Shown piece after piece: positions 268 through 38,548 of a stretch of DNA of 38,548 bases. The stretch is taken from the IMG/VR virus record IMGVR_UViG_2718217885_000011. One strand, written 5' to 3'. A model generated the notes under the pieces. The model did no database searches, was not told the origin of the DNA, and saw nothing but the letters and a program-made list of their open reading frames with translations. Origin of the DNA: a virus (taxonomy: Duplodnaviria > Heunggongvirae > Uroviricota > Caudoviricetes). Made by a program: the position numbers and the translations under genes. Each line of letters starts with the position of its first letter. The first letter of the stretch is position 1.

Positions 268-300
268 AAGCCCTCGCGTTGAGGGCTTTACTGATTTTTT
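268..300. terminator. hairpin plus T-run between convergent grxA and ybjM (bidirectional intrinsic terminator)
   Basis: aagccctc-gcgtt-gagggctt followed by ctgatttttt; lies between the two convergent stop codons. Confidence 0.5.
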
Positions 301-665
301 CTGTGCTGTGGTTTAAACAAACTACTGATAAATAAGAAACACAGTGCCCCCAGCGCACACCAGAACACCGCGCTTAGTAACCATGCCAGCTCTTGCCAGA
401 ATGAGCGCGTCGGTGAAAAAAACAGCCGCATAATGAGCATCGAACAGGGTGCCGCCAGCATTGCGCCAAACAGAGGTTTCAGGACTTCTCTACGCTGTGA
501 AAAGAAGCTGGCGACTGCTCCAGGAAGAATGAAAAATAGCAAGCCGATTTCAGGATGCCCGGCAGCCCGAAAAGCGCCTTTCATGTGCGTCGCCAGAAAA
601 AGGCACACCACAATGAAGAGGACAAAACAGCAGATTGCCCCCGCCCAACGTTGTTTATGTTTCAC
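288..665 (-). CDS. ybjM: inner membrane protein YbjM
   Basis: 125-aa hydrophobic ORF; sequence and position between grxA and ybjL as in E. coli. Confidence 0.9.
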   Translation of the reverse strand: MKHKQRWAGAICCFVLFIVVCLFLATHMKGAFRAAGHPEIGLLFFILPGAVASFFSQRREVLKPLFGAMLAAPCSMLIMRLFFSPTRSFWQELAWLLSAVFWCALGALCFLFISSLFKPQHRKNQ

Positions 666-934
666 TCGTTCCTCCTGACACTGCGTCTATCGAACACATT
701 TTTCGCCAGTGTGGCGTTCAGTAAGATAAAGCCGCTTCGCATTCCATGCTAATATAGGCCAACGCAATTCATATAGCCGTTGATACCTAATGTGATTACA
801 CTAGTAAAATATATTGTTACTTTACTATCGTTTAGGTGCGCTGAATGAATCTGCGCCCTGAATTCTGGTAAAAAACATTATCGTAAATTACCATTTCTTT
901 CAACAGCTTACTAGTAAACAAGAAGTTAGCCTCC

Positions 935-22168: not shown

Positions 22169-23935
22169 ATGAACACCACACTGACACCCGCAGATCTCGA
22201 TCCCCGTCGGCAGGCCATGCTGCTGTACTTTCAGGGATACCGCGTAGCCCGCATTGCTGAAATGCTGGGCGAGAAAGTTGCAACCGTTCACAGCTGGAAA
22301 AAACGCGACAAGTGGGGTGACTATGGGCCGCTGGATCAGATGCAGCTCACCACCGCCGCACGCTACTGCCAGCTCATTATGAAGGAGCACAAAGAAGGGA
22401 AAGATTTCAAAGAGATTGACCTGCTGGCGCGCCAGTCGGAACGCCACGCGCGGATCGGCAAGTTTAACAATGGCGGCAACGAAGCCGACTTAAACCCTAA
22501 CGTCGCCAACCGCAACAAAGGCCCACGCCGGCAGCCGGAAAAGAACGTTTTCACCGATGAACAGATTGAGAAGCTGGAAGAAATTTTCCATTCCTCCATG
22601 TTCAACTACCAGCGCCACTGGTGGGAAGCCGGAAAAACCAACCGCATCCGCAACCTGCTGAAGTCACGCCAGATCGGCGCGACCTTTTACTTTGCCCGTG
22701 AAGCCCTGATTGACGCCCTGCTTACCGGACGTAACCAGATTTTCCTTTCCGCCAGTAAGGCACAGGCCCACGTCTTTAAACAGTACATCATCGACTTCGC
22801 CAAAGAAGTGGAGGCGGAGCTGAAAGGCGATCCGATGGTGCTTCCCAACGGGGCCACGCTTTACTTCCTCGGCACCAATGCCCGCACTGCCCAGAGTTAC
22901 CACGGCAACCTGTATCTGGATGAATACTTCTGGATACCGAAATTCCAGGAGCTGCGCAAAGTGGCTTCCGGTATGGCTATTCACAAAAAATGGCGACAAA
23001 CCTATTTTTCCACACCATCCAGCCTGACACACAGTGCTTATCCGTTCTGGTCCGGTGCGCTGTTTAACCGTGGGCGCAACAAAGCCGATAAGGTGGACAT
23101 CGACCTGTCCCACAACAATCTGGCCCCCGGCCTGCTGTGCGCAGACGGGCAATACCGCCAGATAGTCACCGTGGAAGATGCGGTACGCGGCGGCTGTAAC
23201 CTGTTCGACCTCGACCAGCTACGCATGGAGTACAGCCCGGACGAATATCAGAACCTGCTGATGTGCGAGTTCGTGGACGATCTCGCGTCCGTGTTCCCGC
23301 TCAGCGAACTGCAGGCGTGCATGGTGGACAGTTGGGAAGTCTGGACCGATTTTCATGCACTGGCCCTGCGCCCGTTTAGCTGGCGCGAGGTGTGGATCGG
23401 TTATGACCCGGCAAAAGGTACGCAGAACGGCGACAGCGCCGGATGCGTGGTGGTGGCACCGCCAGCCGTGCCAGGCGGTAAGTTTCGCATTCTTGAGCGT
23501 CACCAGTGGCGCGGGATGGACTTCCGCGCCCAGGCTGATGCAATCAAAAAACTGACCGAGCAGTACAACGTGACCTATATCGGCATCGACTCGACAGGCG
23601 TCGGTCACGGGGTTTATGAGAACGTGAAAGCGTTCTTTCCTGCCGTCCGGGAGTTTGTCTACAACCCCAACGTTAAAAACGCTCTGGTACTCAAGGCCTA
23701 CGACATTATCAGCCACCGCCGTCTGGAGTTTGACGCCGGACACACCGACATAGCGCAGTCCTTTATGGCAATCCGTCGCGCCACCACCGCCAGTGGCAAC
23801 CGCCCGACCTATGAAGCCAGCCGCAGCGAAGAAGCCAGCCACGCCGATCTGGCATGGGCAACGATGCACGCACTGTTTAACGAACCGCTGCAGGGCGAAT
23901 CCGCCAATACCAGCAATATTGTGGAGATTTTTTGA
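22169..23935 (+). CDS. terminase ATPase (large) subunit P
   Basis: 588-aa ORF divergent from O, P2 P size. Confidence 0.9.
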   Translation: MNTTLTPADLDPRRQAMLLYFQGYRVARIAEMLGEKVATVHSWKKRDKWGDYGPLDQMQLTTAARYCQLIMKEHKEGKDFKEIDLLARQSERHARIGKFNNGGNEADLNPNVANRNKGPRRQPEKNVFTDEQIEKLEEIFHSSMFNYQRHWWEAGKTNRIRNLLKSRQIGATFYFAREALIDALLTGRNQIFLSASKAQAHVFKQYIIDFAKEVEAELKGDPMVLPNGATLYFLGTNARTAQSYHGNLYLDEYFWIPKFQELRKVASGMAIHKKWRQTYFSTPSSLTHSAYPFWSGALFNRGRNKADKVDIDLSHNNLAPGLLCADGQYRQIVTVEDAVRGGCNLFDLDQLRMEYSPDEYQNLLMCEFVDDLASVFPLSELQACMVDSWEVWTDFHALALRPFSWREVWIGYDPAKGTQNGDSAGCVVVAPPAVPGGKFRILERHQWRGMDFRAQADAIKKLTEQYNVTYIGIDSTGVGHGVYENVKAFFPAVREFVYNPNVKNALVLKAYDIISHRRLEFDAGHTDIAQSFMAIRRATTASGNRPTYEASRSEEASHADLAWATMHALFNEPLQGESANTSNIVEIF

Positions 23936-24966
23936 TGGGAAAGAGTAAGAAGAACCGAGCTGCGGCGACGAAACAGATCCAGCTTAAAAGTCAAACTACA
24001 GCCGAAGCATTCAGCTTCGGCGATCCCGTTCCTGTTCTGGACCGCCGTGAACTGCTGGACTATGTGGAATGCGTACAGATGGACCGCTGGTATGAGCCTC
24101 CCGTCAGCTTTGACGGACTGGCGCGCACCTTCCGCGCTGCCGTGCATCACAGTTCCCCGATTGCAGTAAAGTGTAACATTCTGACCAGTACCTATATCCC
24201 TCATCCTCTGCTCAGCCAGCAGGCTTTTTCGCGTTTTGTGCAGGACTATCTGGTATTTGGCAATGCCTATCTGGAGAAACGCACGAACCGCTTCGGTGAA
24301 GTGATCGCCCTTGAACCTGCGCTGGCAAAATACACCCGACGCGGATTAGACCTAGATACCTACTGGTTTGTGCAATACGGTATGACAACCCAGCCGTATC
24401 AGTTCACGAAAGGCAGCATTTTTCATCTGATGGAACCGGATATTAATCAGGAGATCTACGGCCTGCCCGGTTATCTTTCTGCCATTCCGTCAGCCCTGCT
24501 CAACGAGTCCGCCACGCTGTTCCGCCGTAAGTATTACATCAACGGCAGCCATGCAGGCTTCATCATGTATATGACCGATGCCGCGCAGAACCAGGAGGAT
24601 GTGAACAACCTCCGCAACGCGATGAAAAGCGCCAAAGGCCCTGGCAACTTCCGCAATCTGTTTATGTACTCGCCTAACGGCAAAAAGGACGGACTTCAGA
24701 TTATCCCGTTGTCAGAAGTCGCAGCGAAGGATGAGTTTCTGAATATCAAGAACGTGAGCCGTGATGACATGATGGCTGCGCACCGCGTGCCACCACAGAT
24801 GATGGGGATTATGCCAAGTAATGTTGGCGGGTTTGGGGATGTGGAGAAGGCCAGTTGCGTCTTTGTCCGTAACGAACTGATGCCTCTACAAAAACAACTC
24901 GAGGGGCTCAATGAATGGTTAGGGGAGAAAATTATGCGTTTTGAAAAATATGAACTAACTCTTTGA
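23932..24966 (+). CDS. portal (capsid vertex) protein Q
   Basis: 344-aa ORF, start overlaps P stop, P2 Q size. Confidence 0.9.
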   Translation: MMGKSKKNRAAATKQIQLKSQTTAEAFSFGDPVPVLDRRELLDYVECVQMDRWYEPPVSFDGLARTFRAAVHHSSPIAVKCNILTSTYIPHPLLSQQAFSRFVQDYLVFGNAYLEKRTNRFGEVIALEPALAKYTRRGLDLDTYWFVQYGMTTQPYQFTKGSIFHLMEPDINQEIYGLPGYLSAIPSALLNESATLFRRKYYINGSHAGFIMYMTDAAQNQEDVNNLRNAMKSAKGPGNFRNLFMYSPNGKKDGLQIIPLSEVAAKDEFLNIKNVSRDDMMAAHRVPPQMMGIMPSNVGGFGDVEKASCVFVRNELMPLQKQLEGLNEWLGEKIMRFEKYELTL

Positions 24967-25009: not shown

Positions 25010-25711
25010 TTAAATTTCCCTTTCAAGAATATGAGAAACTATTGTCTCAGTTAAATATTTAACCATACCCTCGTTAGCACAGACAGAACCATTCTTCGAT
25101 ATCTCAAATTCACAACGATGTCCTAGAACATATCCTGCCGCCCTGACCTTATCAAGAGAATATGCTTTATCCCCAATAATATCCTTCACATCATCAAATG
25201 CATTTTTCTTAGATGTAACCTCTACGGTTGCCTTAGAGTTATCATTAACTATCAAATTACTAACCTTAACCTTCTTGATACTAACAAGTTCCAAATCATA
25301 TTTTTTATGCAGCGAATCCAAATACTCAGACAGTTTAATATCAACGATGCCAAACCCTATTTTATAACCTGAATCCGCACTAAGTCGCTCTGTCAAAGCC
25401 TTTATTGATTTTGGTGGATTGTAAACTGATAATAAATATAACCTACCTATGAGTTTAGATATAGAGAACTGAATTGACTCATAAGTAATGAACTCTTGTT
25501 CATTTTCGTTACCCAAAGGATCAACTGAAGTCTGTTTATTCAACTTAGCTTCAGTATACTTAGCTGATAGTACGTCAGATGAAACTTCAAAGTCAGAATA
25601 ACCATAGCCAAGTTCTTCAGAGTATTTGTTACTCTTTATATAAAAAGCAATCTCACTTAATGTAAGATTAGACTTCAATCTATTCCATTTAACTCTGATC
25701 AGACTTTCCAT
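25010..25711 (-). CDS. cargo operon gene 3, hypothetical protein (233 aa), no recognisable domain
   Basis: ATG start with GGGGAAG SD-like sequence, 23-nt overlap with the upstream gene; AT-rich codon usage unlike the phage core. Confidence 0.7.
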   Translation of the reverse strand: MESLIRVKWNRLKSNLTLSEIAFYIKSNKYSEELGYGYSDFEVSSDVLSAKYTEAKLNKQTSVDPLGNENEQEFITYESIQFSISKLIGRLYLLSVYNPPKSIKALTERLSADSGYKIGFGIVDIKLSEYLDSLHKKYDLELVSIKKVKVSNLIVNDNSKATVEVTSKKNAFDDVKDIIGDKAYSLDKVRAAGYVLGHRCEFEISKNGSVCANEGMVKYLTETIVSHILEREI

Positions 25712-26813
25712 CTTTCTTCCCCTGAGCCTGTTTATTTAGTTCAATTATAATGGAACGGGCTGCCTTTTCAATCATACGACTAAAAAATAACTTCTGACTA
25801 TCTTTCAACTGGACTGTTGACTTATTATACTCGCCACCCCCTTTGTATTTTTTAATACCTTTAGCTATATATGAAAACCCCTTAAAATTTTGAGCGTCGT
25901 TAAATTGCGCTTCAAACTCAAAAATATTTGGATCCGCACCTTTCTCTTTAACTCGCCATTTAATTTTACATATATAAAAGCCACGCTCATAAAGTGAGTA
26001 GATTTCTTCAGATTTGAGCACCCCTTCCCCTTTCAACGATGCCTTACTAACATGTACTCCTAAATCTGTTTCGCCGTCTTCCTCTTCAATCTCTTCTGGT
26101 TTTGGGTGATAAACATAAGCATCTGTTACATCATCGAGTTCATAACCTTCAAGCCCATTTATTAATTTCGTAAAGAAATCAGTTCTGGACTGAGGGGAAT
26201 CAATGTTTTCTAGACTTATTTCTTGGATATCGAGAGTAGCGTCCGAAATTGGTTTTCCTTCCTCAATCGCTCTTTCCTTTGATAATCTTTCAACGATAGC
26301 AAGTAACTGATTCTCATAAACCTCAGTTTGCTCATTATCTGGACGGCGAATCACATAACCAGCTTCTGTTGGCTCTACCTCTATGACAGCTTGCTTTTTA
26401 ACGACTTGTTTGAAATCACTTTTTGAAAAATTTGTTGACATATAAGTTATATGAATATTTATCATGCCACTTTTATCAGCAACTATATGGCAGAGGTCTT
26501 TTTGGTCTGTTAACTCTTTTTTTAGCGAATCCGCCGCTTTTAATAAAATTGTTTTTTCAGGCATATTAGATACTAATCTTGAAGTAGAACGCTCCCTCCG
26601 AGGCTCACTTCCTAATATCTCTGCAATTTTCTGATGATCATAGTAATCATGAGTGAACTTTGAGAAGTTTTTAGCTAATAATTTTCTATCGGTGTTTTTT
26701 GAAATAATTATACCTCTTGAAAGATAAAGCTCTCTCATCTCATTTTGAGTTACTTGTGACTGGTTAAGAGCATCACATAAAACCTTATCCGTCACACTAT
26801 AAATATTGCTCAT
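25689..26813 (-). CDS. cargo operon gene 2, hypothetical protein (374 aa) with acidic stretch, no recognisable domain
   Basis: ATG start 1 nt after the stop of gene 1 (TGA-T-ATG); long uninterrupted AT-rich ORF. Confidence 0.7.
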   Translation of the reverse strand: MSNIYSVTDKVLCDALNQSQVTQNEMRELYLSRGIIISKNTDRKLLAKNFSKFTHDYYDHQKIAEILGSEPRRERSTSRLVSNMPEKTILLKAADSLKKELTDQKDLCHIVADKSGMINIHITYMSTNFSKSDFKQVVKKQAVIEVEPTEAGYVIRRPDNEQTEVYENQLLAIVERLSKERAIEEGKPISDATLDIQEISLENIDSPQSRTDFFTKLINGLEGYELDDVTDAYVYHPKPEEIEEEDGETDLGVHVSKASLKGEGVLKSEEIYSLYERGFYICKIKWRVKEKGADPNIFEFEAQFNDAQNFKGFSYIAKGIKKYKGGGEYNKSTVQLKDSQKLFFSRMIEKAARSIIIELNKQAQGKKDGKSDQS

Positions 26814-26814
26814 A

Positions 26815-27879
26815 TCAATAATCCCAAGATGTTGATTCAGTACTATAAAACTCTTTAACTGTAGGAACTAAATAAATATCCATAGAAAGTAGTTTTTCCT
26901 TTGCACTATCATCATAATTCCAATCAAAAGCATACTTCTGAAGTGCCCGTTTAAAATGCGATCTTATTGAATCATTCCGATCTTTTGTCGCGATACGTAT
27001 TCTTATGTTGTTTTTTCCATTCAGAATCTGGTAGTTAGTTAAAAGATCAAAGAGATAATAAAACTCCATATCTGTGGAGCCCGGACGATTATAATATACA
27101 ACATACCCTGCAGGATAAACTTCAACTTCTCTTTGTAGCTCGCGATTATACGAGTAAACTGCATCATGTTTAATAATTAAAAATGGAGCAGTCAAAGACT
27201 CTATCGTTGCAGGTAAATAATCATCGGTGACAATTACCTTATGATATGTAAGTTGAGGGTAATAAAAACCATACTCATCTCTCGGGAATTGATTATCTCT
27301 GATTAATTCATTCATATCTGCGATTATAGATAACATATAGCTAATCGACTTAGGCTCAATTATATGTATTTGTTGCCCATCAGACACTTTTATATTATCT
27401 AATTTAACTGCCTTCGGCTTTCTTTTTCTTCCTGCAGGTTTGGGAGGATCGAAGAAATCATAAAAGTTATGCTCAAAATCGTTATCATGATTATAAACAA
27501 ACAATAACCCTCTAACCTCACTATCCCCAACGCATATATTATATTTCTCTCTCCACTCCGGACTATATTGAGCACAGGAAATTGTATACCCTAGGGATGT
27601 CAGCGCTTTTTCTATCATGTCAGGATTAATAGAACCCTTAGAGTAACTTTTTAGGTCAGTATTCAATAAAATAGTTTTATTTAAATAAGGGTCTTTATAG
27701 CTAAAAACCACATCGACAGGGTGTGTATGAGCCTGCTTTTTTTCGAGTGGTTTATGATTTTCTTCGTCAATACATCCAAAGTCCTGATCACACGGCCCTG
27801 ATATGCTCCATTTAAAGCGCTCAAAAATCTTCGATGATACTATCTTTGCTAATTCTTCTATCGGTCCGTTCTCAGCCAC
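26815..27879 (-). CDS. cargo operon gene 1, hypothetical protein (~354 aa); possible PD-(D/E)xK-like motif (HPVD ... ILLNTDLK)
   Basis: ORF open to TTG at 27912; GTG at 27879 preceded by AAGGGGA is the preferred start; no P-loop. Confidence 0.65.
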   Translation of the reverse strand: MAENGPIEELAKIVSSKIFERFKWSISGPCDQDFGCIDEENHKPLEKKQAHTHPVDVVFSYKDPYLNKTILLNTDLKSYSKGSINPDMIEKALTSLGYTISCAQYSPEWREKYNICVGDSEVRGLLFVYNHDNDFEHNFYDFFDPPKPAGRKRKPKAVKLDNIKVSDGQQIHIIEPKSISYMLSIIADMNELIRDNQFPRDEYGFYYPQLTYHKVIVTDDYLPATIESLTAPFLIIKHDAVYSYNRELQREVEVYPAGYVVYYNRPGSTDMEFYYLFDLLTNYQILNGKNNIRIRIATKDRNDSIRSHFKRALQKYAFDWNYDDSAKEKLLSMDIYLVPTVKEFYSTESTSWDY

Positions 27880-28007
27880 AATACATCCCCTTAACCTGAT
27901 CTTTCTCGGCAAAATCCTATGGACAAGATAAGTAAATCATTGTTCCTTTGCAAGAATGGAGGCGCATTATGCTTAGTAGTGAAATATGACATCAAGCGCG
28001 CGCTCGT

Positions 28008-28400: not shown

Positions 28401-28736
28401 ATGAACAATATTCCCCCTATACCACAGTTAGGAATTTATGTCTCAAAAATCGATCCCACCCTACGTATCACTGTAACCGATGTTGATATTGTTGATGGTG
28501 AGGATGATTCTCCTGATGATGAATTGTTTTATTTAGTCCACTGGATCGAGGGGGAAGATGAAAGTGATATGACAGCAATGGGATTTGAGCTAGACCCAGT
28601 AGAGTGGCAGGCTTTCGTTGAATCTGAGCAATTAGTGTTTGAGCGTGATCCGTACATGGATTCAATCCCCGAAAATTCAAACTTGGCAAAGATTCGGGAT
28701 TTTCTCATGAAGACTAAACAGAATGATCATTCGTAA
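28401..28736 (+). CDS. small highly acidic hypothetical protein (111 aa)
   Basis: ATG preceded by AAAGGAG SD; strongly acidic (Asp/Glu-rich); AT-rich. Confidence 0.65.
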   Translation: MNNIPPIPQLGIYVSKIDPTLRITVTDVDIVDGEDDSPDDELFYLVHWIEGEDESDMTAMGFELDPVEWQAFVESEQLVFERDPYMDSIPENSNLAKIRDFLMKTKQNDHS

Positions 28737-28928: not shown

Positions 28929-29162
28929 TTAATGCAGCCAGCTGTCGTCCTCCCACACCTTCTGCATAATTTTCATCACTTGTTTTCTTTCTTCATCCAG
29001 TTGCAGTCCGGTTAGTTCCACACCGTTAGAGCTACCTTTGCGAATGCGAATTACCGTTTTGGGATACAGGGGGCGCAGATTGCGGTAAAGCTCGGATTCA
29101 AGGGCGTCCAGGGTAGACTGGCTAATCTTCTGCTCTTTATCGATCATTATTTCAATGCGCAT
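28929..29162 (-). CDS. DinI-family protein
   Basis: MRIEIMIDKEQ...VWEDDSW resembles E. coli DinI (MRIEVTIAK...TWESADDW); GAGGTGA SD before the internal ATG; ORF track extends to 29234. Confidence 0.75.
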   Translation of the reverse strand: MRIEIMIDKEQKISQSTLDALESELYRNLRPLYPKTVIRIRKGSSNGVELTGLQLDEERKQVMKIMQKVWEDDSWLH

Positions 29163-29172
29163 AAAAGTCACC

Positions 29173-29361
29173 TCAGCTGATGACATCCATTGAGCGGTTG
29201 TATTCGTGGCTTCTGATTTTTGCCATGAGTTCATCAGTCAATTCAGAAACCCACTGCAGAGCCAGCCCCTTCTCTTCATCACTACACTCACTAGCCGCTA
29301 CAAGCTTAAGAAAAAAATCAATGCGCTGGAGCTTCAAAGACTCCAAAAAATAGTCCTGCAT
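29173..29361 (-). CDS. small hypothetical protein (62 aa), first gene of SOS-box operon
   Basis: ATG with AGGAGG SD; LexA box about 45 bp upstream. Confidence 0.55.
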   Translation of the reverse strand: MQDYFLESLKLQRIDFFLKLVAASECSDEEKGLALQWVSELTDELMAKIRSHEYNRSMDVIS

Positions 29362-29513: not shown

Positions 29514-31928
29514 TTAATACAGGTTCCGCCACTTATCATCTTCCTTCAGACGCTGGTTCCGATAGAAGATACGCAGGCCTGCTCCTGACGGAATACTGCC
29601 GCCGCGAAGGAGCAAATCGACTTCTTTCTCGCTGCCATCAAATCCCCTGGACTTCAGTTCATAGACGAGCTGCTGTCGCTGATGGTCTGTAATTCGCTGT
29701 TTGTAGTCTTTACGCCGTTTCGGTTTCACCTGGCGTAACCTTGCAGCCAGTTCCCGGCGCTCTTTTTTGCTCATACTGTGCAGGTAATTGTGCAACTCCT
29801 TGTCATTCATACGGGTAATATCCGTTCTGGAGTCCCCATCAGCTGATTTGTCTTTCCCTTGCTGGTTCAAATTTTCAGCAAGGGGACAGTTATTGCCACG
29901 AGTCCAAGGGGCGCAAGCGCCCTGGTCGGCTGCCGCCTCCTGAACGTCAACGGCCTTACGAACCATTTTCCACTTCACTGCATGAGTGCAGATCTTGCCC
30001 TCTGCAATGGGTGACCAGATGCCATAAATACGAATGCCGTGATCGCCATAGGCGGTCGGCTCTTCGTTGATTTCATAAGCGGTTCTGATGAGGTGATATT
30101 TGCGGGGAACCAGTACGCCGCCCTGCTTCATGATGTAGGTGGCAAAACAACCAGCATCAGCAGCAGCCAGGATGGCATCAAGGCGTGGGTTATCCAGTAC
30201 CGGCGCACCTGCTTTTTTGTCCCCCTGTTGCCTTGCCGCCTGACCAGCCAGCAATCGCAGTTCACGGTAAGCCTGACGCCCCGGAATGCCAAAGAAGCGG
30301 AATTGCTGAACACGATGCAGAGACGCCCAGGCATTAACGTATTCAGCGTTATCACGCAGGGATTTACCCGTTTCCTTGCTGATCTCGCCAGCCAGACCAC
30401 GCCCGTCAATGTTCTTACTGATGTATTTCGCGATGTAGCTTGTTGGCGTACCTTTGCGCGGGTTTATCAGCTCAGACTTAAAGCGTGGTCCTGTGTTATT
30501 ACCCAGCTCCTCGCGGTCTTCACGAATGGCAAACTTACGCAACAAAGCAGTAATGGCGCGGCGATCTTTTTTGCGCATAAAACACAACAGGTGCCAGTGA
30601 ACTGTACCGTCATGATGCGGCTCAGCCACCCGCACGCCATACCAGCGCAATCCGGCTTTGTACATCGCCTTACGAAATGCAGCAAACATGCCGACCAGAT
30701 AATCACTGCTTTGTCTTACCGTCGCATTTGTCCAGGTCGGGTTGGGCCTGCCGTTATTTAGCGTGGAATGGAAACGTGACGGACAGGTGATGGTGTAGAA
30801 AACGGCGCAGTCGCCACGCATTTCCGCGATAAGCTCCAGACCTTTAACACAGGCCATCATCTCATTGCGGCGATGCGCAGGGTTGCTGCTGCTGGCGTTT
30901 ACCACATCCTCCATGTCCAGAGTGTCGCCGTCTTCGTTCACCAGTTCATGAGAACGGAAAAACTCCAGCGACTTACGGCGCTGCTCACGTTTATGCATCA
31001 CGGCTTCATAGCTGACATAGGGAGATGCTTTTTTGCTGACAAGGCAGACAGCACGCAACTGCTCTTCCCGCCATTCGCAACGCATCTTCCATAATTTCCG
31101 ATACCACCAGTCGGCGCACAACATACGCGCCAGCGAACCCGGAATGAGTTCATAGGGCACGGGTTTACGGCGGTTTCTTTTCCGACGGAGTTGCTCAAAC
31201 GCAGGCGGGATGACATCCAGACGCACGGTTTCCGCTGCCACCTTTTCCCATGTCTTGCGGATTTCTGCTGGCTTAACGTCATCGGTGGCATACAAATCGC
31301 CACAAGCTGCATCAAGGCACATGCTCATATGCGCAGCTACCAGGGTGGACAGGCGTTTCACCTGATCCTGACTCATTTCAGGCAGGATCAGCAGGCCGTC
31401 CAGCCCTTCATGGCTTGCCATAAAGCGAAAAGAAGTGGATAGCTGACTGTCGCGTACATGCTCCAGTCGTTCAAGACATGGCTTAATCGTCTCACGCAAA
31501 TAGCGGAAATAAGCCTTTGGCCTGCCCAGGCTGCTGAAGTATTCAATACGTTGCATCAGCGGCTTGCTGATGTGGGAAGGCTGGGCATTGACGTCCGCCA
31601 GAATGACCATTTCTGGATTAAAACGCTGCTGCTCATGCGCCAGCTTTGCCCGGCTAATGAGCTTATCCTGCTCCATTCCGCGTTGGACAGGATCACGGGA
31701 TTCATTAAAGAAATAACGCTCCCAGACCTGCTCACTCAGTGCCTCGTGGCGCAGTTGTTCCTGCTCGTTATCGGCAGCGTACAGAGTGATCAGGTTTGAA
31801 AGTGCAGACTCCGGCGCAACTTCCGCCGGGTCCAGATAAGGGTTAATGGCCTTTTTCGGGCCGTTCCATGAAAATGATGCAGCGGCCTCGTTAAAGCCGC
31901 TAGAGTTGCTCATATCGTCATAACTCAT
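29514..31928 (-). CDS. replication initiation protein A (rolling-circle HUH endonuclease)
   Basis: 804-aa ORF with HWHLLCF (HUH) and YIAKYISK (catalytic Tyr) motifs as in P2 gpA. Confidence 0.9.
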
Positions 31929-33819: not shown

Positions 33820-34329
33820 TCACAGCAAACCAAATGAAGCACCGAGGCCAGTCACGGTATCAACTGCACTCGCCATCGCAGGGTTAGCCTGTAAACGGGC
33901 CTGCAATGAAACAGCAGCCAACGCCATCAGTCGTGTTACAGAGTTAATGCTGCTGATAGCATCACGACGGCCTGCACTGGTTTTTACATCGCCAGACACC
34001 GCGCCTGCAGCTACACGCCCGATCTCTGCTGTTGCACTCATGACGTAATGCGGCAGTTTCTCTTTTGCCACCTCATTAATCGGAACACATGGCAGGCAGT
34101 GAATCTGTGCCAGAAAACCATCTACCAGTGTTGAGTCTTCTGTCAGATCAGTAAGCAACCAAATTTCTGGTGCGGTTAATAAATGAGGTTGAGCTGGATT
34201 CAGCTTGTTCCGCAGAATCTGCACATTCATACCTGCACGTTCTGCCAGTTGCACCAAGTTGTGGCGCAATGCAAATGCACGACAGGCTTCATCAAAATGT
34301 GGATGTTTGGAAACTTGGTAATCAAACAT
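33820..34329 (-). CDS. CII-like transcriptional activator (phage 186 CII family)
   Basis: [20 protein letters not shown]...[25 protein letters not shown] closely resembles 186 CII as recalled; start at internal Met, ORF track extends to 34383. Confidence 0.85.
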
Positions 34330-34361
34330 AGTCGACACTCCTGATGCATCCCAAAATGGAA

Positions 34362-34583
34362 CTAGTTGAATACAACATTGCAATCAGCAAGTGCATCAAC
34401 GGTAAGAGCAGCAAGGTTGATCATTACCTTTTCTCTTTTCTTGTCTTTCCGAAGGCGATGGCGAGGGATACGACCATCAGCCAGCATATCGTTGATGGTG
34501 TCGATAGAAAGACCAGTAAGTTCGCTATAACGCTCAATTGTGACGTGTGGCGTATTCAGAGTTATTGAAATGTTAGGGGTCAT
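34362..34583 (-). CDS. Apl/Cox-like excisionase and repressor of lysogenic promoter
   Basis: 73-aa HTH protein, first gene of the operon divergent/convergent with cI. Confidence 0.7.
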
Positions 34584-34670
34584 GATGCAACATCTCCTAT
34601 TGGCTTGTGGTGAGCCGGTATTAATCGTGACAAAACATCACAAAACGGAGAATAGGTTCACATAAAGAAT
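34584..34670. promoter_or_regulatory. immunity switch region (lytic and lysogenic promoters, operators)
   Basis: 87-bp AT-rich interval between apl and cI starts; repeated acaaaac and cctatt/aatagg inverted elements. Confidence 0.45.
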
Positions 34671-35609
34671 ATGTCAACTCAAAAAATCACATTTCGCCAT
34701 ATTGAAGATAGTCTGAAAGCTATGGTCATGCAGAATCGTGGAGGGCAAAAAGTCATTGAGAGGATACTCAAGGCCTATGGTTTCAAATCACGCCAAGCCT
34801 TCTGTAAGCATCTTGGTATTTCACAAAGCACAATGGCTAATAGATATGCACGCGATACCTTCCCTGCTGATTGGGTTGTTATATGTTCAATGGAAACTGG
34901 CGCATCCCTAGAATGGCTGGCCTTTGGTTCTAACAATGCAGAAGAAAGTTTCCCCCCTTATGTGGAACAACATGATGAAACAGTCCCACATGAGGGGTTT
35001 AACAGCAACGCTCATCAATCATCCTTTAAGCGCCGCATTGAGAATCACATTGAGCTTACTAACGGAGGAAAAGCCGCGATAGAGAGGATTGTTAATGCTT
35101 ACGGGTTTAAAACCCGCCAAGCCTTAGCCGACCACCTTGGTATTTCAAAAAGCACATTAGCCACACGATACATGCGAGATTCTTTCCCTGCGGATTGGGT
35201 GATTAAATGCGCATTAGAAACCAAAGCGGATCTCGCCTGGCTAGTTACAGGAATCGAAACACCAAATAGTTCACAAGAAGAAAACACTGTAATTTTAAAT
35301 AAGTTCAATTTGGTCAATGGCGTGCTTGTCGAGTCAGGTTTTTTATCCATGGATCGGTGTCTACTTCCGAAGCAAGAAACTAGCAGCTTGATGTTTGTAA
35401 GCAATGGAGAAAAACATGTCATATGTGATAAAGAATTTCACCTAATTAGAGATGGAAAATGGTTAGTAGGAATTGACAATGAGTTATCTTTAAAAGAGTT
35501 AACTCGTTTACCTAAGAACAAAATTCTTGTTTCTGGTGGGAGTAAGGATTTTGAGTGTTCCATTGAGGATATTCAAATTATAGCCAGCATTATCTTAACA
35601 ATACAATAA
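34671..35609 (+). CDS. CI-type immunity repressor (186 CI family) with tandem duplicated N-terminal HTH domain
   Basis: two ~65-aa repeats (IERILKAYGFKSRQAFCKHLGISQSTMANRYARDTFPADW... / IERIVNAYGFKTRQALADHLGISKSTLATRYMRDSFPADW...) plus a C-terminal domain resembling 186 CI. Confidence 0.8.
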   Translation: MSTQKITFRHIEDSLKAMVMQNRGGQKVIERILKAYGFKSRQAFCKHLGISQSTMANRYARDTFPADWVVICSMETGASLEWLAFGSNNAEESFPPYVEQHDETVPHEGFNSNAHQSSFKRRIENHIELTNGGKAAIERIVNAYGFKTRQALADHLGISKSTLATRYMRDSFPADWVIKCALETKADLAWLVTGIETPNSSQEENTVILNKFNLVNGVLVESGFLSMDRCLLPKQETSSLMFVSNGEKHVICDKEFHLIRDGKWLVGIDNELSLKELTRLPKNKILVSGGSKDFECSIEDIQIIASIILTIQ

Positions 35610-35652
35610 CATTGCAGACATTACTTTTAAATACTTACTGGAGGAGTCTAAA

Positions 35653-37422
35653 ATGAATCATCATCTTTCAAAGATTTCTATAAAAAACTTTAGATCTTGC
35701 AAAGATATTGATATCAATTTTTCTTCATTCACGCCTTTAATCGGTTACAACAATGCTGGTAAGTCAACGATTTTAAATGCTATTGAATGGCTTTTTAAGA
35801 AAAAACTTTTGTCCTCTGATGATTATACTAATCCAGATAACCCTATAGAAGTTATAGGTACAGTTAAGGGTATTACTGAAGATATTTTGTCAGCTTTAAC
35901 AGAAGAAAACAGAACTAGAATTTCACCCTACATTATTGATGGGGTATTGATATTTAAGCGTCAACAGACTGTTGGTGCTCAAAGTGCAAAAGACGTCAGA
36001 TTATTAATTAAAAACCCAGAAAATAACGAATTCAGGACATCACCAACGGGTATTGAGAATGCGATAAAAGCTTTATTTCCAGACCCAATACGTATAGGTG
36101 CAATGGAAAATGCAGCGGATGATTCTTCAAAATCAAAAACAGGAACTACAATAGGTAAGTTGCTGGCAGAATTGAGTTGCAAAATAGAAGAGAAGCACAC
36201 TCAAAGGATACTAAGCCATTTAAATGCCGTTAATAGAAGAATGACTGCAACCGGTAATAAACGAATATCGGACCTCAATGATATTGATGATTCAATAAGT
36301 AGTAAACTTGCTGATTTCTTCCTTGGGATAAGTTTAAAACTACACTTCGAACTCCCTGACTTCAAGGATATATTTAAATCTGGGACTGTAAAAGTATATG
36401 AAGATTCATTTCCCGGCATTGCTCGTGACTGTTCTTCTTATGGTCATGGCACACAGCGTTCGATTCAGATGTCTCTAATAAGACATTTAGCTGATATAAC
36501 CAACGGTGATGATATTAAAACAACTACTCTACTGTTAATAGATGAACCTGAGTTATATCTTCACCCATTTGCTATCGAACAAATTAGAGAATCTCTAAAA
36601 ACACTATCTCATCATGGATATCAAATAATTTTCTCTACCCATTCATCTCAAATGATTACCTCTGACTTAGCAAAAGACACTGTGTTAATCAGAAAAAACA
36701 GTCAGCGTGGCACTCATTGCAGATTAACATTAAAAGAAGCAGTCAATAAAGTAATCGAACAACGACCAGCACAAGCAACCCATTTATTTTCATTAACACA
36801 GTCTTCAAAAGTTTTGTTTGCTAACAATGTAATACTAACAGAAGGTAAAACAGAGACTACTCTGCTCCCATTTATTTTTAACAAAGTTAAAAATAAAACA
36901 TTAGGTCAGATGCAAATAGCACTAATTGAAACAGGGTCCGTTGAAAGTATATCTAAAACGATGCAAATTCTAAATTCAATGGATATACCTACAAAAGCAA
37001 TTGTTGATTTAGATTTTGCGTTCCGCGGTGCAATAAGGAACAACTTCTTAGAACATAATGACGAGGATATTTTACGACTAAAAGAAATCTTGAGAAGTAT
37101 GCATGCTAATGGAGAATGCACTCTCGATGGATCCGGTTTGCCTACAAAGGGTAGTAACACTACCGCAGCTGAAGCATTTGCTATTATGTCTCAAAAGCCC
37201 GGCGCCAGAGAATTTTTGTCATCATTAGCCGCAAAACTGAGAAATGCAAATATTTGGATTTGGCTAAATGGTTCGATAGAAAACCATTTGGGTCTTACAG
37301 AAAAAAATGAATCAGTATGGGCTGATTTCAAAACAAAAGCAGATACACAACCTCTTTCAGATATCTGTGCAGATTTCGAAAGTATTGAGGCTTTAGTCGA
37401 CTGGATTACCCCTGACGTATGA
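35653..37422 (+). CDS. OLD-family ATP-dependent endonuclease (ABC-type ATPase + TOPRIM), P2 Old-like class 1
   Basis: Walker A GYNNAGKST, Walker B LLLIDEPELYLHP, FSTHS, then TOPRIM-like VILTEGKTE and VDLDF; 589 aa (P2 Old ~586 aa); strong GGAGG SD. Confidence 0.85.
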   Translation: MNHHLSKISIKNFRSCKDIDINFSSFTPLIGYNNAGKSTILNAIEWLFKKKLLSSDDYTNPDNPIEVIGTVKGITEDILSALTEENRTRISPYIIDGVLIFKRQQTVGAQSAKDVRLLIKNPENNEFRTSPTGIENAIKALFPDPIRIGAMENAADDSSKSKTGTTIGKLLAELSCKIEEKHTQRILSHLNAVNRRMTATGNKRISDLNDIDDSISSKLADFFLGISLKLHFELPDFKDIFKSGTVKVYEDSFPGIARDCSSYGHGTQRSIQMSLIRHLADITNGDDIKTTTLLLIDEPELYLHPFAIEQIRESLKTLSHHGYQIIFSTHSSQMITSDLAKDTVLIRKNSQRGTHCRLTLKEAVNKVIEQRPAQATHLFSLTQSSKVLFANNVILTEGKTETTLLPFIFNKVKNKTLGQMQIALIETGSVESISKTMQILNSMDIPTKAIVDLDFAFRGAIRNNFLEHNDEDILRLKEILRSMHANGECTLDGSGLPTKGSNTTAAEAFAIMSQKPGAREFLSSLAAKLRNANIWIWLNGSIENHLGLTEKNESVWADFKTKADTQPLSDICADFESIEALVDWITPDV

Positions 37423-37470
37423 TTTAATATTTACATACATTGACCACTGGTCAAACATACAGTTAAATTT

Positions 37471-37495
37471 AGCCCTCTGACATGAGGGCTTTTTT
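37471..37495 (+). terminator. hairpin plus T-run immediately upstream of int start
   Basis: agccctc-tgacatg-agggct followed by TTTTT, ending 1 nt before the int ATG. Confidence 0.5.
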
Positions 37496-38548
37496 ATGGC
37501 AGTACGAAAACTCACCACAGGAAAATGGCTTTGCGAATGTTACCCCGCCGGACGTAGTGGGCGTCGGGTGCGTAAACAATTCGCCACCAAAGGCGAAGCT
37601 CTGGCTTTTGAGCGCCACACGATGGAAGAAACCGAAGCAAAGCCCTGGCTGGGTGAATCAGTGGATCGTCGAACACTGAAAGACGTGGTTGAGCTATGGT
37701 TCAAACTACATGGTAAATCTCTGACAGCTGGGCAGCATGTCTATGACAAATTGCTGTTGATGGTTGACGCTCTGGGTAATCCTCTTGCAACCGATCTCAC
37801 CTCTAAAATGTTTGCCCACTATCGAGATAAACGCCTGACAGGCGAGATCTACTTCAGCGAGAAATGGAAGAAAGGAGCAAGCCCGGTCACCATTAACCTG
37901 GAGCAAAGCTATCTAAGTAGTGTTTTTAGCGAACTATCCCGTCTGGGCGAATGGTCGTATCCGAACCCACTGGAGAACATGCGAAAATTCACCATCGCAG
38001 AAAAAGAGATGGCATGGCTTACCCATGAGCAGATTGTTGAATTGCTGGCTGATTGCAAACGTCAGGACCCAATTCTGGCACTGGTAGTTAAGATATGCTT
38101 AAGCACAGGCGCACGCTGGCGTGAAGCCGTAAATCTTACCCGCTCACAGGTGACCAAATACCGAATTACCTTTGTCAGAACGAAGGGGAAGAAAAACAGA
38201 AGCATCCCTATCAGTAAAGAGCTTTACGAAGAGATCATGGCGCTTGATGGGTTCAATTTCTTTACAGACTGCTATTTTCAATTTTTATCCGTGATGGAAA
38301 AAACGTCTATCGTGCTCCCTCGCGGTCAACTCACACACGTTCTGCGCCATACGTTTGCGGCGCACTTCATGATGTCGGGTGGAAACATTCTCGCCTTACA
38401 AAAAATTCTCGGACACCACGATATAAAAATGACTATGCGTTACGCACATCTGGCACCAGATCATCTGGAAACGGCGCTCCGTTTCAATCCTCTGGCAACG
38501 CTGCCAAGTGGCGACAAAGTGGCGGCAGCGGTTGGCATTACCCCGTAA
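37496..38548 (+). CDS. int: tyrosine integrase (P2/186 family)
   Basis: 350-aa ORF; N-terminus like 186/P2 Int; C-terminal HxxR...Y catalytic region (LRHTFAAHFMMSGGNILALQKILGHHDIKMTMRYAH). Confidence 0.9.
   Translation: MAVRKLTTGKWLCECYPAGRSGRRVRKQFATKGEALAFERHTMEETEAKPWLGESVDRRTLKDVVELWFKLHGKSLTAGQHVYDKLLLMVDALGNPLATDLTSKMFAHYRDKRLTGEIYFSEKWKKGASPVTINLEQSYLSSVFSELSRLGEWSYPNPLENMRKFTIAEKEMAWLTHEQIVELLADCKRQDPILALVVKICLSTGARWREAVNLTRSQVTKYRITFVRTKGKKNRSIPISKELYEEIMALDGFNFFTDCYFQFLSVMEKTSIVLPRGQLTHVLRHTFAAHFMMSGGNILALQKILGHHDIKMTMRYAHLAPDHLETALRFNPLATLPSGDKVAAAVGITP

What the first reader, a model, noticed from the sequence alone, without database searches (positions are those of the whole stretch)
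35653..37495. OLD-family ATPase-TOPRIM nuclease inserted in the lysogeny operon between cI and int
Seen: a 589-aa ORF with Walker A (GYNNAGKST), Walker B (LLLIDEPELYLHP) and a C-terminal TOPRIM-like region, the architecture of class 1 OLD nucleases such as P2 Old. It is co-oriented with and between the CI repressor and the integrase, has its own strong SD, and is followed by a terminator hairpin abutting the int start. AT-rich relative to the phage core. Established: P2 Old excludes lambda and is the founding member of the OLD/Gabija/PARIS nuclease clade, but in P2 it lies near cos, not in the immunity region. Inference: this position means expression from the lysogenic promoter in every lysogen, a defence cargo site distinct from the cos-flanking hotspot.
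Basis: partly seen in the sequence, partly recalled or inferred. Interest (0 to 1): 0.65.

Follow-up and report, generated by a model that had tools for sequence, protein, structure and literature searches.

The report
Old-type defence nuclease beside prophage repressor
A P2/186-like E. coli prophage carries an intact relative of the classic P2 "Old" anti-phage nuclease between its repressor and integrase genes, which is a real but already described cargo site, so this is a good but ordinary example.

Summary
ORF 35653-37422 (+, 589 aa) is an intact, stand-alone (class 1) OLD-family ABC-ATPase/TOPRIM protein. It matches PADLOC's Old model end to end (770 bits) and is 37% identical to P2 Old. 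All 11 P2 OLD residues shown essential in vivo are conserved or conservatively replaced. Its AlphaFold model matches Thermus OLD best, and dN/dS is 0.07.

It lies 43 nt after cI and 73 nt before int, co-oriented, in a 186-like prophage of E. coli (100% identical in strain GB089). Related phages hold other cargo in the same slot: PD-Lambda-1, a two-TM protein family, a 63-aa secreted peptide. Phage 186 holds nothing there. Old orthologues at 83, 77, 62 and 52% identity occupy the same slot in Citrobacter, Klebsiella and Serratia.

Two corrections:
- The "terminator" hairpin belongs to the conserved int leader, not to old.
- The swapped AT-rich block begins inside cI, so CI's C-terminal domain travels with old.

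The site is already published (Rousset 2022; Egorov and Atkinson 2024; NAR 2026). Expression from the lysogenic promoter and a P2-Old-like abortive tRNase mechanism are inferences, not shown. Verdict: new member of a known kind, modest interest.

The parts
35653..37422 (+). old homologue: 589-aa stand-alone (class 1) OLD-family ABC ATPase plus TOPRIM nuclease
   Evidence: ORF. Pfam AAA_15 and OLD-like_TOPRIM. PADLOC Old, 770 bits, full length. 37% identity to P2 Old. Catalytic residues K37, D297, E298, H304, H330, E397, E401, D452, D454, S541, E543, K551. AF2 model matches Ts OLD 6P74 best. dN/dS 0.07.
35640..35646 (+). Shine-Dalgarno GGAGGAG, 6 nt upstream of the old ATG
   Evidence: Read directly from the sequence.
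34671..35609 (+). cI repressor, 312 aa, with two tandem N-terminal HTH domains and a CI C-terminal domain. It is a mosaic gene.
   Evidence: Pfam Phage_CI_repr (2 stretches) plus Phage_CI_C. The N-terminal domain is 89% identical to 4LV2017 CI. The C-terminal domain is 64% identical to the Citrobacter CI that sits next to the 83% old orthologue.
35222..37428 (+). AT-rich exchangeable block: CI C-terminal domain, 43-nt spacer and old
   Evidence: BLAST breakpoints against relatives fall at 35221 and 37417-37434. GC is 0.353 in the CI C-terminal domain and 0.351 in old, against 0.439 in the CI N-terminal domain and 0.488 in int.
37429..37495 (+). Conserved int leader. It contains the palindrome TTGACCACTGGTCAA, a promoter-like TTGACC-18-TAAATT (37440-37469), and a hairpin at 37471-37490 whose 3' arm GAGGG can serve as the int SD. 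A T-run follows that contains the int ATG.
   Evidence: Conserved in all six slot variants aligned, with a C-to-T (G-U) stem change. Terminator and promoter scan. Folding -13.3 kcal/mol, z -3.7; the 1EC213 variant folds at -17.5, z -5.75.
37496..38548 (+). P2/186-type tyrosine integrase, 350 aa. Its stop codon is the last base of the window.
   Evidence: Pfam Int_N plus Phage_integrase. 95-98% DNA identity to int of relatives that carry other cargo.
34362..34583 (-). apl/cox-like small regulator, divergent from cI (lytic side of the switch)
   Evidence: ORF. The same 73-aa gene is annotated Cox/regulator in relatives.
33820..34383 (-). cII-like (CP76) lysogeny-establishment regulator
   Evidence: Pfam Phage_CP76, 4.4e-42.
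25010..27912 (-). Context only: a three-gene 3HP-type (Hp1/Hp2/Hp3) candidate defence system in the classical gpA-gpQ hotspot of the same prophage
   Evidence: PADLOC Hp1 5.5e-64, Hp2 2.5e-47, Hp3 6.9e-09. GC 0.34-0.36.

Best explanation
The ORF is a functional, stand-alone (class 1) OLD-family protein: an ABC-type ATPase sensor fused to a TOPRIM nuclease. P2 Old is its closest characterised relative.

It is carried as lysogenic-conversion (anti-phage) cargo in the variable slot between cI and int of a 186-like prophage integrated next to rcdA/ybjL in E. coli.

Most likely mode of action, with the basis for each step:
1. Inferred: it is transcribed together with cI from the lysogenic promoter(s), as cI-int is in phage 186, and translated from its own strong SD. 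Every lysogen would then hold a low, CI-coupled level of inactive Old.
2. Inferred by homology to P2 OLD: infection by another phage creates aberrant DNA structures or RecBCD inhibition, which the ATPase module senses.
3. Inferred: the TOPRIM site, whose two-metal residues are all present, then cleaves nucleic acid. For P2 OLD the target is the anticodon stem of tRNAs. Translation stops and the infection aborts.

Shown here: the cargo arrived and is exchanged by recombination between the conserved HTH-coding part of cI and the conserved int leader. The block that moves is 'CI C-terminal domain + old'.

Shown here: the hairpin before int is a backbone element of the int leader. Its role as an attenuator, or in sequestering the int SD, is inferred.

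My sub-probabilities:
- Class 1 OLD identity and cargo-slot status: about 0.95.
- Anti-phage function: about 0.8.
- Co-transcription with cI: about 0.65.
- tRNase rather than DNase effector step: about 0.5.
For: Family and intactness:
- Pfam AAA_15 plus OLD-like_TOPRIM.
- PADLOC Old, 770 bits over residues 3-585 of 589.
- 36-37% identity to P2 Old over 99% of its length.
- All P2 OLD residues essential in vivo (PMC7049728) map to identical residues. The exception is D541->S541, which matches Ts OLD S478.
- AF2 model pLDDT 84.8; best PDB match is Ts OLD 6P74, E 1e-22.
- dN/dS 0.07 against the Citrobacter orthologue.
- 14 E. coli genomes carry it at >=99.5% identity, full length.

Stand-alone status:
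- Flanked only by cI and int.
- No conserved partner gene in 80 loci from other species.

Cargo slot:
- Same flanks, different content in 4LV2017, 813R9/KP12 (PD-Lambda-1), CFT073, WCHEC035125, ET210 and 1EC213.
- The slot is empty in phage 186, where cI abuts int in one operon.
- Old orthologues at 83, 77, 62 and 52% identity sit in the same cI-old-int arrangement in Citrobacter, Klebsiella and Serratia.

Operon logic:
- 43-nt spacer with no terminator or significant structure.
- No promoter-like site on the + strand between 34200 and 35625.
- Annotated 186 lysogenic operon: pL/pE -> cI-int-orf69 -> terminator.

Block exchange: breakpoints at 35221 and about 37429; CI domain identities.

Mechanism of the closest relative: PMC12445682 and bioRxiv 10.64898/2026.07.10.737580.
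Against: - No expression data exist. The lysogenic promoter could not be located by the consensus scan.
- The block is very AT-rich and could be silenced by H-NS (general knowledge, not tested).
- At 37% identity to P2 Old, the trigger and substrate may differ. Another class 1 OLD, Vc OLD, is a RecBCD-independent DNA nickase, and Ts OLD degrades DNA in vitro.
- A 56%-identical homologue is coupled to a NERD-UvrD helicase, so the clade is not uniformly stand-alone.
- No phage-challenge data exist for this allele.
Confidence: 0.7

Rival explanations
1. Same gene, different effector chemistry. This Old clade acts on DNA, nicking or degrading the invading or replicating phage genome as reported for Vc OLD and Ts OLD. 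It would not be a tRNA anticodon-stem nuclease like P2 OLD, and it may not depend on RecBCD status.
For: Only 37% identity to P2 Old. The metal-B position is Ser/Ala as in Ts OLD rather than Asp as in P2. Ts OLD degrades DNA in vitro. Vc OLD is a nickase and is RecBCD-independent. The best structural match is Ts OLD.
Against: P2 Old is by far the closest characterised relative: PADLOC Old 770 bits against at most 119 bits for other models. Vc OLD is <25% identical to P2 and Ts OLD. Purified P2 OLD did not cut plasmid or lambda DNA, although earlier work reported DNase activity, so in-vitro DNase reports for this family are unreliable guides.
Confidence: 0.3
2. The position is incidental for expression. 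Old is transcribed from its own promoter within the AT-rich block, or is largely silenced, so it is not part of the lysogenic operon. The slot is simply a place where insertions are tolerated.
For: P2 old has its own mapped transcript starts. The AT-rich block contains promoter-like hexamers, for example 35626-35654. The conserved int leader has its own promoter-like element, which suggests that genes here need not rely on pL.
Against: The 35626-35654 site overlaps the SD and ATG, so a transcript from it would lack the ribosome-binding site. Promoter-like hits are no more frequent than in shuffled sequence (13 found against 11.2 +/- 3.4 expected). All slot cargos in all relatives are co-oriented with cI and start 3-52 nt after its stop codon, as expected for operon members.
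Confidence: 0.2
3. Old serves the prophage's own biology, such as control of replication or recombination intermediates, lysogenisation, or prophage stabilisation/addiction, rather than defence against other phages.
For: OLD homologues can regulate DNA replication in archaea (cited in the introduction of bioRxiv 10.64898/2026.07.10.737580). The gene sits in the lysogeny module and is linked to CI's C-terminal domain.
Against: It is dispensable. Most relatives lack it: 14 of about 1136 E. coli genomes with this backbone carry it, and phage 186 has nothing there. The same slot carries a validated defence system, PD-Lambda-1, in 164 genomes. Outside prophages the clade lives in defence islands and type I RM operons. 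The CI C-terminal domain linkage fades at greater divergence (29-31% at 62 and 52% old identity), as expected from mere adjacency.
Confidence: 0.07

Closest known systems
Bacteriophage P2 Old (class 1 OLD; PADLOC 'Old')
   Same: Same length class (589 vs 586 aa) and the same ABC-ATPase plus TOPRIM architecture. 37% identity end to end. All functionally tested catalytic residues are conserved. Both are single-gene lysogenic-conversion cargo of a P2-family prophage, are AT-rich, and are expected to be made in the lysogen.
   Different: It sits between cI and int in the lysogeny module, not between gpA and gpQ next to cos with its own promoter and tin. It belongs to a different, very widespread sub-clade that is 44-55% identical across phyla. 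Metal-B residue 541 is Ser, not Asp. Trigger, substrate and phage range are untested.
Thermus scotoductus OLD (PDB 6P74)
   Same: Best sequence and structure match in the PDB. ATPase residues K34/E276/H283/H310 and TOPRIM residues E377/D381/D431/D433 align by sequence. S478/E480 correspond by the G-S-I-E motif. All match K37/D297/H304/H330/E397/E401/D452/D454/S541/E543.
   Different: Only about 16% identity in the structural alignment. The window protein has an insertion of about 40 aa between the DxD and the metal-B motif. Ts OLD has no known biological role.
Defence hotspot between cI and int in P2-related phages (Rousset 2022, K139-like Vibrio prophages; Egorov and Atkinson 2024 'third P2 hotspot'; NAR 2026 'integrase-primase' hotspot, 8% of P2 systems)
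   Same: Same position relative to the lysogeny genes. Cargo varies between related phages and includes known defence systems (and my survey).
   Different: The papers as read here do not single out Old in this slot. They also do not describe the CI C-terminal domain co-transfer, the conserved int leader, or the persistence of the cI-old-int arrangement down to 52% identity.
Lambda rexAB (defence genes co-transcribed with cI from PRM)
   Same: Abortive-infection cargo placed directly downstream of the repressor gene, so it is made in every lysogen (established knowledge, recalled from memory, not tested here).
   Different: Unrelated proteins and a different phage family. Co-transcription is demonstrated for rexAB and only inferred here.
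PD-Lambda-1 (DUF4041 plus T5orf172; annotated 'SNIPE associated') in E. coli phage vB_EcoM-813R9 and Klebsiella phage KP12
   Same: Occupies exactly the same slot with the same int leader. It is also AT-rich, single-gene and co-oriented.
   Different: Unrelated protein. More common in E. coli (164 vs 14 of 5426 genomes). Associated with a short, single-HTH cI.
Vibrio cholerae Vc OLD (class 1, DNA nickase)
   Same: Stand-alone OLD on a mobile defence element next to an integrase. Walker and TOPRIM residues are required for defence.
   Different: <25% identical to P2 and Ts OLD and placed in a different clade. RecBCD-independent.

Membership tests
OLD family (ATPase plus TOPRIM nucleases) | N-terminal ABC-type ATPase with Walker A Lys, Walker B acidic pair, D-loop His and H-loop His | tested here: met
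   K37, D297-E298, H304 and H330 align with P2 K37/D299/H306/H332 and Ts K34/E276/H283/H310. Pfam AAA_15 and AAA_21.
OLD family (ATPase plus TOPRIM nucleases) | C-terminal TOPRIM domain with metal-A ligands (E, DxD), metal-B ligands (E/D, S/D, E) and a conserved basic residue | tested here: met
   E397, D452 and D454; E401, S541 and E543; K551. Pfam OLD-like_TOPRIM 1.5e-16. Invariant in a 43-sequence alignment, except that position 541 varies.
OLD family (ATPase plus TOPRIM nucleases) | Overall fold like a solved OLD protein | tested here: met
   AF2 model (pLDDT 84.8, pTM 0.77). Top Foldseek PDB hit is 6P74 Ts OLD, E 9.9e-23, TM 0.57/0.64, followed by GajA and the retron Eco8 effector.
OLD family (ATPase plus TOPRIM nucleases) | ATP hydrolysis and metal-dependent nuclease activity | not testable with these tools
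   Needs purified protein.
Class 1 OLD (stand-alone) | Single isolated gene: no UvrD/PcrA/Rep-like helicase immediately adjacent (class 2), no reverse transcriptase or ncRNA (retron-associated), and no split ATPase and TOPRIM genes (PARIS) | tested here: met
   The neighbours are cI and int only. The same holds in orthologous loci L009-L014. There is no conserved partner in 80 other loci. Caveat: one 56% homologue overlaps a NERD-UvrD helicase gene.
P2 Old-type defence protein (PADLOC Old) | Full-length match to the Old profile, far above other ATPase-TOPRIM models | tested here: met
   PDLC02358 Old, 5.6e-232, 769.6 bits, residues 3-585 against profile 2-578. The next best are AriA at 119 bits and GajA at <=97 bits.
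P2 Old-type defence protein (PADLOC Old) | Phenotypes: exclusion of lambda (Spi), killing of recB/recC hosts, tRNA anticodon-stem cleavage | not testable with these tools
   Known for P2 OLD only.
Gabija (GajA/GajB) | GajA-type OLD nuclease encoded next to a GajB UvrD-like helicase | tested here: not met
   No helicase gene adjoins old: its only neighbours are cI upstream and int downstream. The rest of the window was not scanned for helicases. GajA models score <=97 bits against 770 for Old.
PARIS (AriA/AriB) | Separate AriA ATPase and AriB TOPRIM/DUF4435 proteins (or their fusion) | tested here: not met
   The AriA model matches only residues 5-335, at 119 bits. The TOPRIM part matches Pfam OLD-like_TOPRIM. 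No AriB model appeared among the 25 hits shown of 152.
P2-like prophage accessory/defence hotspot at cI-int | Conserved flanking core genes with unrelated, variable cargo between them in related phages | tested here: met
   At least six cargo types lie between cI and the 95-98% identical int leader. Frequencies in 5426 E. coli genomes are 632, 164, 14 and 7.
P2-like prophage accessory/defence hotspot at cI-int | The cargo includes experimentally validated defence systems | tested here: met
   PD-Lambda-1 (PADLOC 400 bits) and Old. Validation is from the literature, not done here.
186-type lysogenic operon member | Transcribed from pL/pE together with cI | not testable with these tools
   Supported only by gene order, a 43-nt spacer without terminator or structure, and the annotated 186 operon.

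The most novel reading that the evidence does not exclude
Placing Old in the cI operon is functional rather than incidental, in three ways.
- Old synthesis would be tied to the lysogenic state and shut off by convergent lytic transcription when the prophage itself is induced. The phage's own replication intermediates would then not trigger its abortive nuclease.
- The conserved terminator-like int leader would insulate int from whatever cargo is swapped in.
- This widespread Old sub-clade (37% identical to P2 Old, 44-55% identical across phyla) would have a trigger or substrate different from P2 OLD's tRNA-Thr.

By extension, the uncharacterised slot occupants would be new superinfection-exclusion or defence genes. 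These are the ~320-aa two-TM family, the 349-aa 4LV2017 protein and the 63-aa secreted peptide.
Probability: 0.2. Interest if true: 0.5.

Novelty: new member of a known kind. Interest (0 to 1): 0.3.

Why it matters
It gives a clean natural example of the founding abortive-infection nuclease family sitting directly behind a prophage repressor gene. That makes two questions easy to test:
- Are class 1 OLD proteins made as part of the lysogenic transcript?
- Do the newly described properties of P2 OLD (tRNA anticodon-stem cleavage, sensing of RecBCD-related DNA structures) extend to a much larger and more widespread sub-clade?

It also documents how cargo is swapped in this minor P2-family hotspot. 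Recombination occurs between the HTH-coding part of cI and a conserved int leader, and it drags the repressor's oligomerisation domain along. The survey points to several uncharacterised occupants of the same slot as candidate defence or exclusion genes.

None of this overturns current understanding. The gene family, the defence role of prophage cargo, and the existence of a hotspot at this position are all published.

Tried and rejected
- Hairpin as old's own terminator: rejected. The hairpin, T-run and int ATG are conserved in phages with other cargo, or only a 63-aa ORF, in the slot.
- Vc OLD as a closer characterised relative than P2 Old: rejected. It is <25% identical to P2 and Ts OLD and lies in another clade.
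- Search for a conserved partner gene (helicase, RT, antitoxin) around 80 homologues from other species: none found. The neighbours are heterogeneous defence-island genes.
- Locating pL or an old-specific promoter by consensus scan: uninformative. It found 13 sites against 11.2 expected from shuffles, and none on the + strand between 34200 and 35625.
- Gabija, PARIS and retron-effector assignments: rejected on gene context and much lower model scores.
- Supplementary tables of the 2026 NAR survey, to see whether Old is listed in the int-gpA hotspot: not held.
- Vassallo 2022 text for the position of PD-Lambda-1: the term was not found in the main text.
- tRNA genes in the window, as possible rescue tRNAs or an att site: none.
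- Functional coupling between CI's C-terminal domain and Old: considered. The linkage holds only among the closest alleles (64% and 54%) and vanishes at 62% and 52% old identity (29-31%). Adjacency explains it better than function.
Full report

Yes. An ATG-initiated ORF occupies 35653-37422 on the + strand and encodes 589 aa. GGAGGAG lies 6 nt upstream of the ATG.

Pfam finds AAA_15 (3.8e-33), AAA_21, and OLD-like_TOPRIM at residues 388-454 (1.5e-16). The upstream co-oriented gene (34671-35609) is a 186-type CI repressor. The downstream co-oriented gene (37496-38548) is a P2/186-type tyrosine integrase. cII (CP76) and an apl/cox-like gene lie divergently upstream.

GC falls to 0.29-0.37 over about 35300-37400, against 0.54-0.60 in the structural genes. 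A terminator-like hairpin at 37471-37490 is followed by a T-run that contains the int ATG. It folds at -13.3 kcal/mol, z = -3.7.

**2. What is the window?**

It is a complete P2/186-like prophage in reverse orientation, plus about 3 kb of host DNA. The host genes ybjM (288-665) and a ybjL-like permease (935-2620) are at the left end.

The 34300-38548 stretch is 100% identical to E. coli GB089 (NZ_CP013663.1), where RefSeq calls the ORF 'ATP-dependent nuclease'. In relatives the prophage abuts rcdA beyond int.

The classical P2 hotspot between gpA (29514-31928) and the portal gene (23932-24966) is also occupied. Three AT-rich genes there (25010-27912) match PADLOC Hp1/Hp2/Hp3. This phage therefore carries cargo at two separate sites.

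**3. What is the protein?**

- PADLOC's Old model matches residues 3-585 at 769.6 bits. AriA and GajA models score at most 119 bits.
- tBLASTn finds P2 old at 36% identity over 99% of the query. A multiple alignment gives 37%.
- Schiltz et al. 2020 (PMC7049728) showed that P2 OLD K37, D299, H306, H332, E398, D453, D455, E402, D541, E543 and K550 are each needed for killing of recBC(ts) cells. Through alignment A3 these map to K37, D297, H304, H330, E397, D452, D454, E401, S541, E543 and K551.
- The single difference, S541, reproduces the metal-B serine (S478) of Thermus OLD.
- The best PDB sequence hit is Ts OLD 6P74.
- An AlphaFold2 model built on 43 homologues (pLDDT 84.8, pTM 0.77) matches 6P74 best (E 1e-22, TM 0.57/0.64). 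GajA and the retron Eco8 effector follow.
- dN/dS against the 83%-identical Citrobacter orthologue is 0.07, with synonymous sites near saturation.

The gene is intact, constrained, and a bona fide OLD-family member. With only cI and int as neighbours it meets the class 1 (stand-alone) definition.

**4. How widespread is the clade?**

There are 1812 hits at E<1e-20. Relatives occur in 430 species-representative genomes. Identities are typically 44-55% in Gamma- and Betaproteobacteria, Bacteroidota, Cyanobacteria, Campylobacterota and even CPR bacteria. That is closer to the window protein than P2 Old is.

In 80 such loci no partner gene recurs. The neighbours are type I RM genes (HsdR in 6-8 of 74 downstream ORFs, HsdM/S upstream), nSTAND3, Mrr, RT and others. 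This is the pattern of a stand-alone resident of defence islands.

One metagenomic homologue at 56% identity overlaps a NERD-UvrD helicase gene. The class 1 / class 2 boundary is therefore not sharp within this clade.

**5. Is the position special?**

Phages with the same backbone have different content between cI and int.

| Phage or strain | Content of the cI-int slot |
|---|---|
| Klebsiella phage 4LV2017 | unannotatable 349-aa protein |
| E. coli phage vB_EcoM-813R9, Klebsiella phage KP12 | 558-aa PD-Lambda-1 (DUF4041 + T5orf172) |
| CFT073, WCHEC035125, ET210 | 314-324-aa proteins of one family (38-47% identical; coiled-coil N-terminus, two TM helices; no Pfam or PADLOC match above threshold) |
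| Many strains, including E. coli B | 63-aa signal-peptide, Cys-rich ORF |
| Phage 186 | nothing: the cI stop overlaps the int start |

In phage 186 the annotated lysogenic operon runs pL/pE -> cI-int-orf69 -> terminator.

Among 5426 complete E. coli genomes the counts are 632 (63-aa ORF), 164 (PD-Lambda-1), 14 (old) and 7 (CFT073-type). All 14 old copies are single, full length, >=99.5% identical and in this slot.

The arrangement is not a one-off. cI-old-int recurs with old orthologues of 83% (Citrobacter freundii), 77% (Klebsiella michiganensis), 62% (Serratia) and 52% identity (K. michiganensis, again with a long double-HTH cI).

More distant homologues also sit beside integrases in other elements. 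One is a Vibrio island (int-old ... nSTAND3/Mrr ... S24 repressor). Another is a Pseudomonas Pf-type filamentous prophage.

**6. How is the cargo exchanged, and what is the hairpin?**

Pairwise BLAST puts the right breakpoint at 37417-37434, immediately after the old stop codon. The left breakpoint, against long-cI relatives, is at 35221, inside cI at about codon 184. The AT-rich exchangeable block is therefore CI's C-terminal domain plus old. GC is 0.353 and 0.351 in those two parts, against 0.439 in the CI N-terminal part and 0.488 in int.

Protein comparisons agree.
- The first HTH domain is 89% and 78% identical to 4LV2017 and CFT073 CI, which carry other cargo.
- The C-terminal domain is only 28-30% identical to those two.
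- The C-terminal domain is 64% and 54% identical to the CI of the Citrobacter and Klebsiella prophages that carry the closest old alleles.
- At 62% and 52% old identity the linkage is gone (29-31%), so adjacency explains it better than functional coupling.

The 67 nt before int (37429-37495) are conserved in every slot variant aligned. They include a promoter-like TTGAC(C/A)-17/18-TAAA(T/A)T. They also include the hairpin, which shows a C-to-T (G-U) change and, in the commoner variant, an A-tract/U-tract form of -17.5 kcal/mol.

The hairpin is therefore a backbone element of the int leader, not old's private terminator. Its 3' arm GAGGG is the only SD-like sequence for int. It may attenuate read-through into int, mask the int ribosome-binding site, or both. 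This is inference.

**7. How it most likely works**

Shown: an intact class 1 OLD protein with complete ATPase and two-metal TOPRIM sites. It sits 43 nt behind cI, with no terminator or significant structure in the spacer, and has a strong SD.

Inferred from the 186 operon: it is co-transcribed with cI, and is therefore present in every lysogen at a CI-coupled level.

Inferred from the closest characterised relative: P2 OLD is constitutively made in lysogens and is harmless until RecBCD is compromised or particular phage DNA structures appear. It then uses ATP hydrolysis to cut the anticodon stem of tRNA-Thr(UGU) and other tRNAs, which arrests translation and aborts infection (PMC12445682; bioRxiv 10.64898/2026.07.10.737580).

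At 37% identity the trigger and substrate may differ. Vc OLD is a RecBCD-independent DNA nickase, and Ts OLD degrades DNA in vitro. I put tRNase against DNase at roughly even odds.

**8. Comparison with what is known; novelty**

- The protein family is known and is recognised by PADLOC and by RefSeq annotation.
- The idea of defence cargo behind a repressor gene is classical (lambda rexAB; from memory).

What this analysis adds is incremental:
- An Old sub-clade that keeps to this slot across enterobacterial genera down to 52% identity.
- The breakpoint inside cI, with co-transfer of CI's C-terminal domain.
- The conserved int leader.
- A list of uncharacterised slot occupants.

**Verdict:** new member of a known kind; interest about 0.3.

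Noticed in passing
window 34671-35609: The CI repressor is 312 aa and has two tandem Phage_CI_repr HTH domains (residues ~20-86 and 135-197) before the CI_C domain. Phage 186 CI (192 aa) has one. The same long form occurs in Klebsiella phage 4LV2017, CFT073, ET210 and a K. michiganensis remnant, always with large cargo downstream.
   Followed up: partly
window 25010-27912 (- strand): Three AT-rich genes in the classical gpA-gpQ hotspot match PADLOC Hp3/Hp2/Hp1 (3HP-type candidate system of Rousset 2022). The prophage therefore carries cargo at two hotspots at once.
   Followed up: partly
window 28929-29234 (- strand) and 28401-28736 (+ strand): A DinI-like protein (Pfam 1.2e-22) and an unannotatable 111-aa ORF lie between the 3HP genes and gpA.
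   Followed up: no
window 288-2620: The host genes ybjM and a ybjL-like Asp-Al_Ex/TrkA_C permease are here, so the left ~3 kb is chromosome. The prophage sits at the ybjL/rcdA locus, and the window ends exactly at the int stop codon.
   Followed up: partly
window 37429-37470: The conserved int leader contains a perfect palindrome TTGACCA-C-TGGTCAA flanked by ACATACA repeats. It overlaps a promoter-like -35/-10 pair (TTGACC-18-TAAATT). This could be a protein-binding site or an int-specific promoter.
   Followed up: partly
L007:1612-2583, L102:1520-2464, L103:1530-2504: A family of 314-324-aa proteins (38-47% identical; coiled-coil N-terminus, two predicted TM helices, conserved C-terminus) occupies the cI-int slot in CFT073, WCHEC035125 and ET210. 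It has no PADLOC hit and only a sub-threshold DUF2207_C hit. It is a candidate exclusion or defence gene.
   Followed up: partly
L006:1295-1486 (and L104:1195-1386): The commonest occupant of the slot (632 of 5426 E. coli genomes, including E. coli B) is a 63-aa ORF with an N-terminal signal-like hydrophobic segment and six cysteines. Its function is unknown.
   Followed up: partly
L008:2860-4088; L105:2615-3337; L104:2698-3030; L007:3760-4029: A second variable site lies between int and the attachment site or rcdA. It carries a Panacea-domain protein plus a 251-aa protein, a 240-aa protein, a 110-aa protein or an 89-aa protein. This matches the 'integrase-att' hotspot of the 2026 NAR paper.
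   Followed up: no
L017:4614-9984: A 54%-identical Old homologue sits in a Pseudomonas aeruginosa Pf-type filamentous prophage (Zot, DUF2523). It lies between small regulator-like genes and a 615-aa integrase, a position analogous to cI-old-int in an unrelated phage type.
   Followed up: no
L019:4137-7830: A 56%-identical homologue overlaps by 17 nt the end of an upstream NERD-UvrD helicase gene. The helicase comes first, whereas the class 2 definition places it downstream. Sequence clade and 'class' therefore do not coincide.
   Followed up: no
L022-L101 (80 loci): All same-slot old alleles keep a low GC (0.35-0.38) despite saturated synonymous divergence. Outside prophages the clade is repeatedly embedded in type I RM operons, between hsdM/S and hsdR.
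   Followed up: partly
L001:3867-4634: In Klebsiella phage 4LV2017 about 770 nt between the 349-aa cargo gene and int carry no annotated gene.
   Followed up: no
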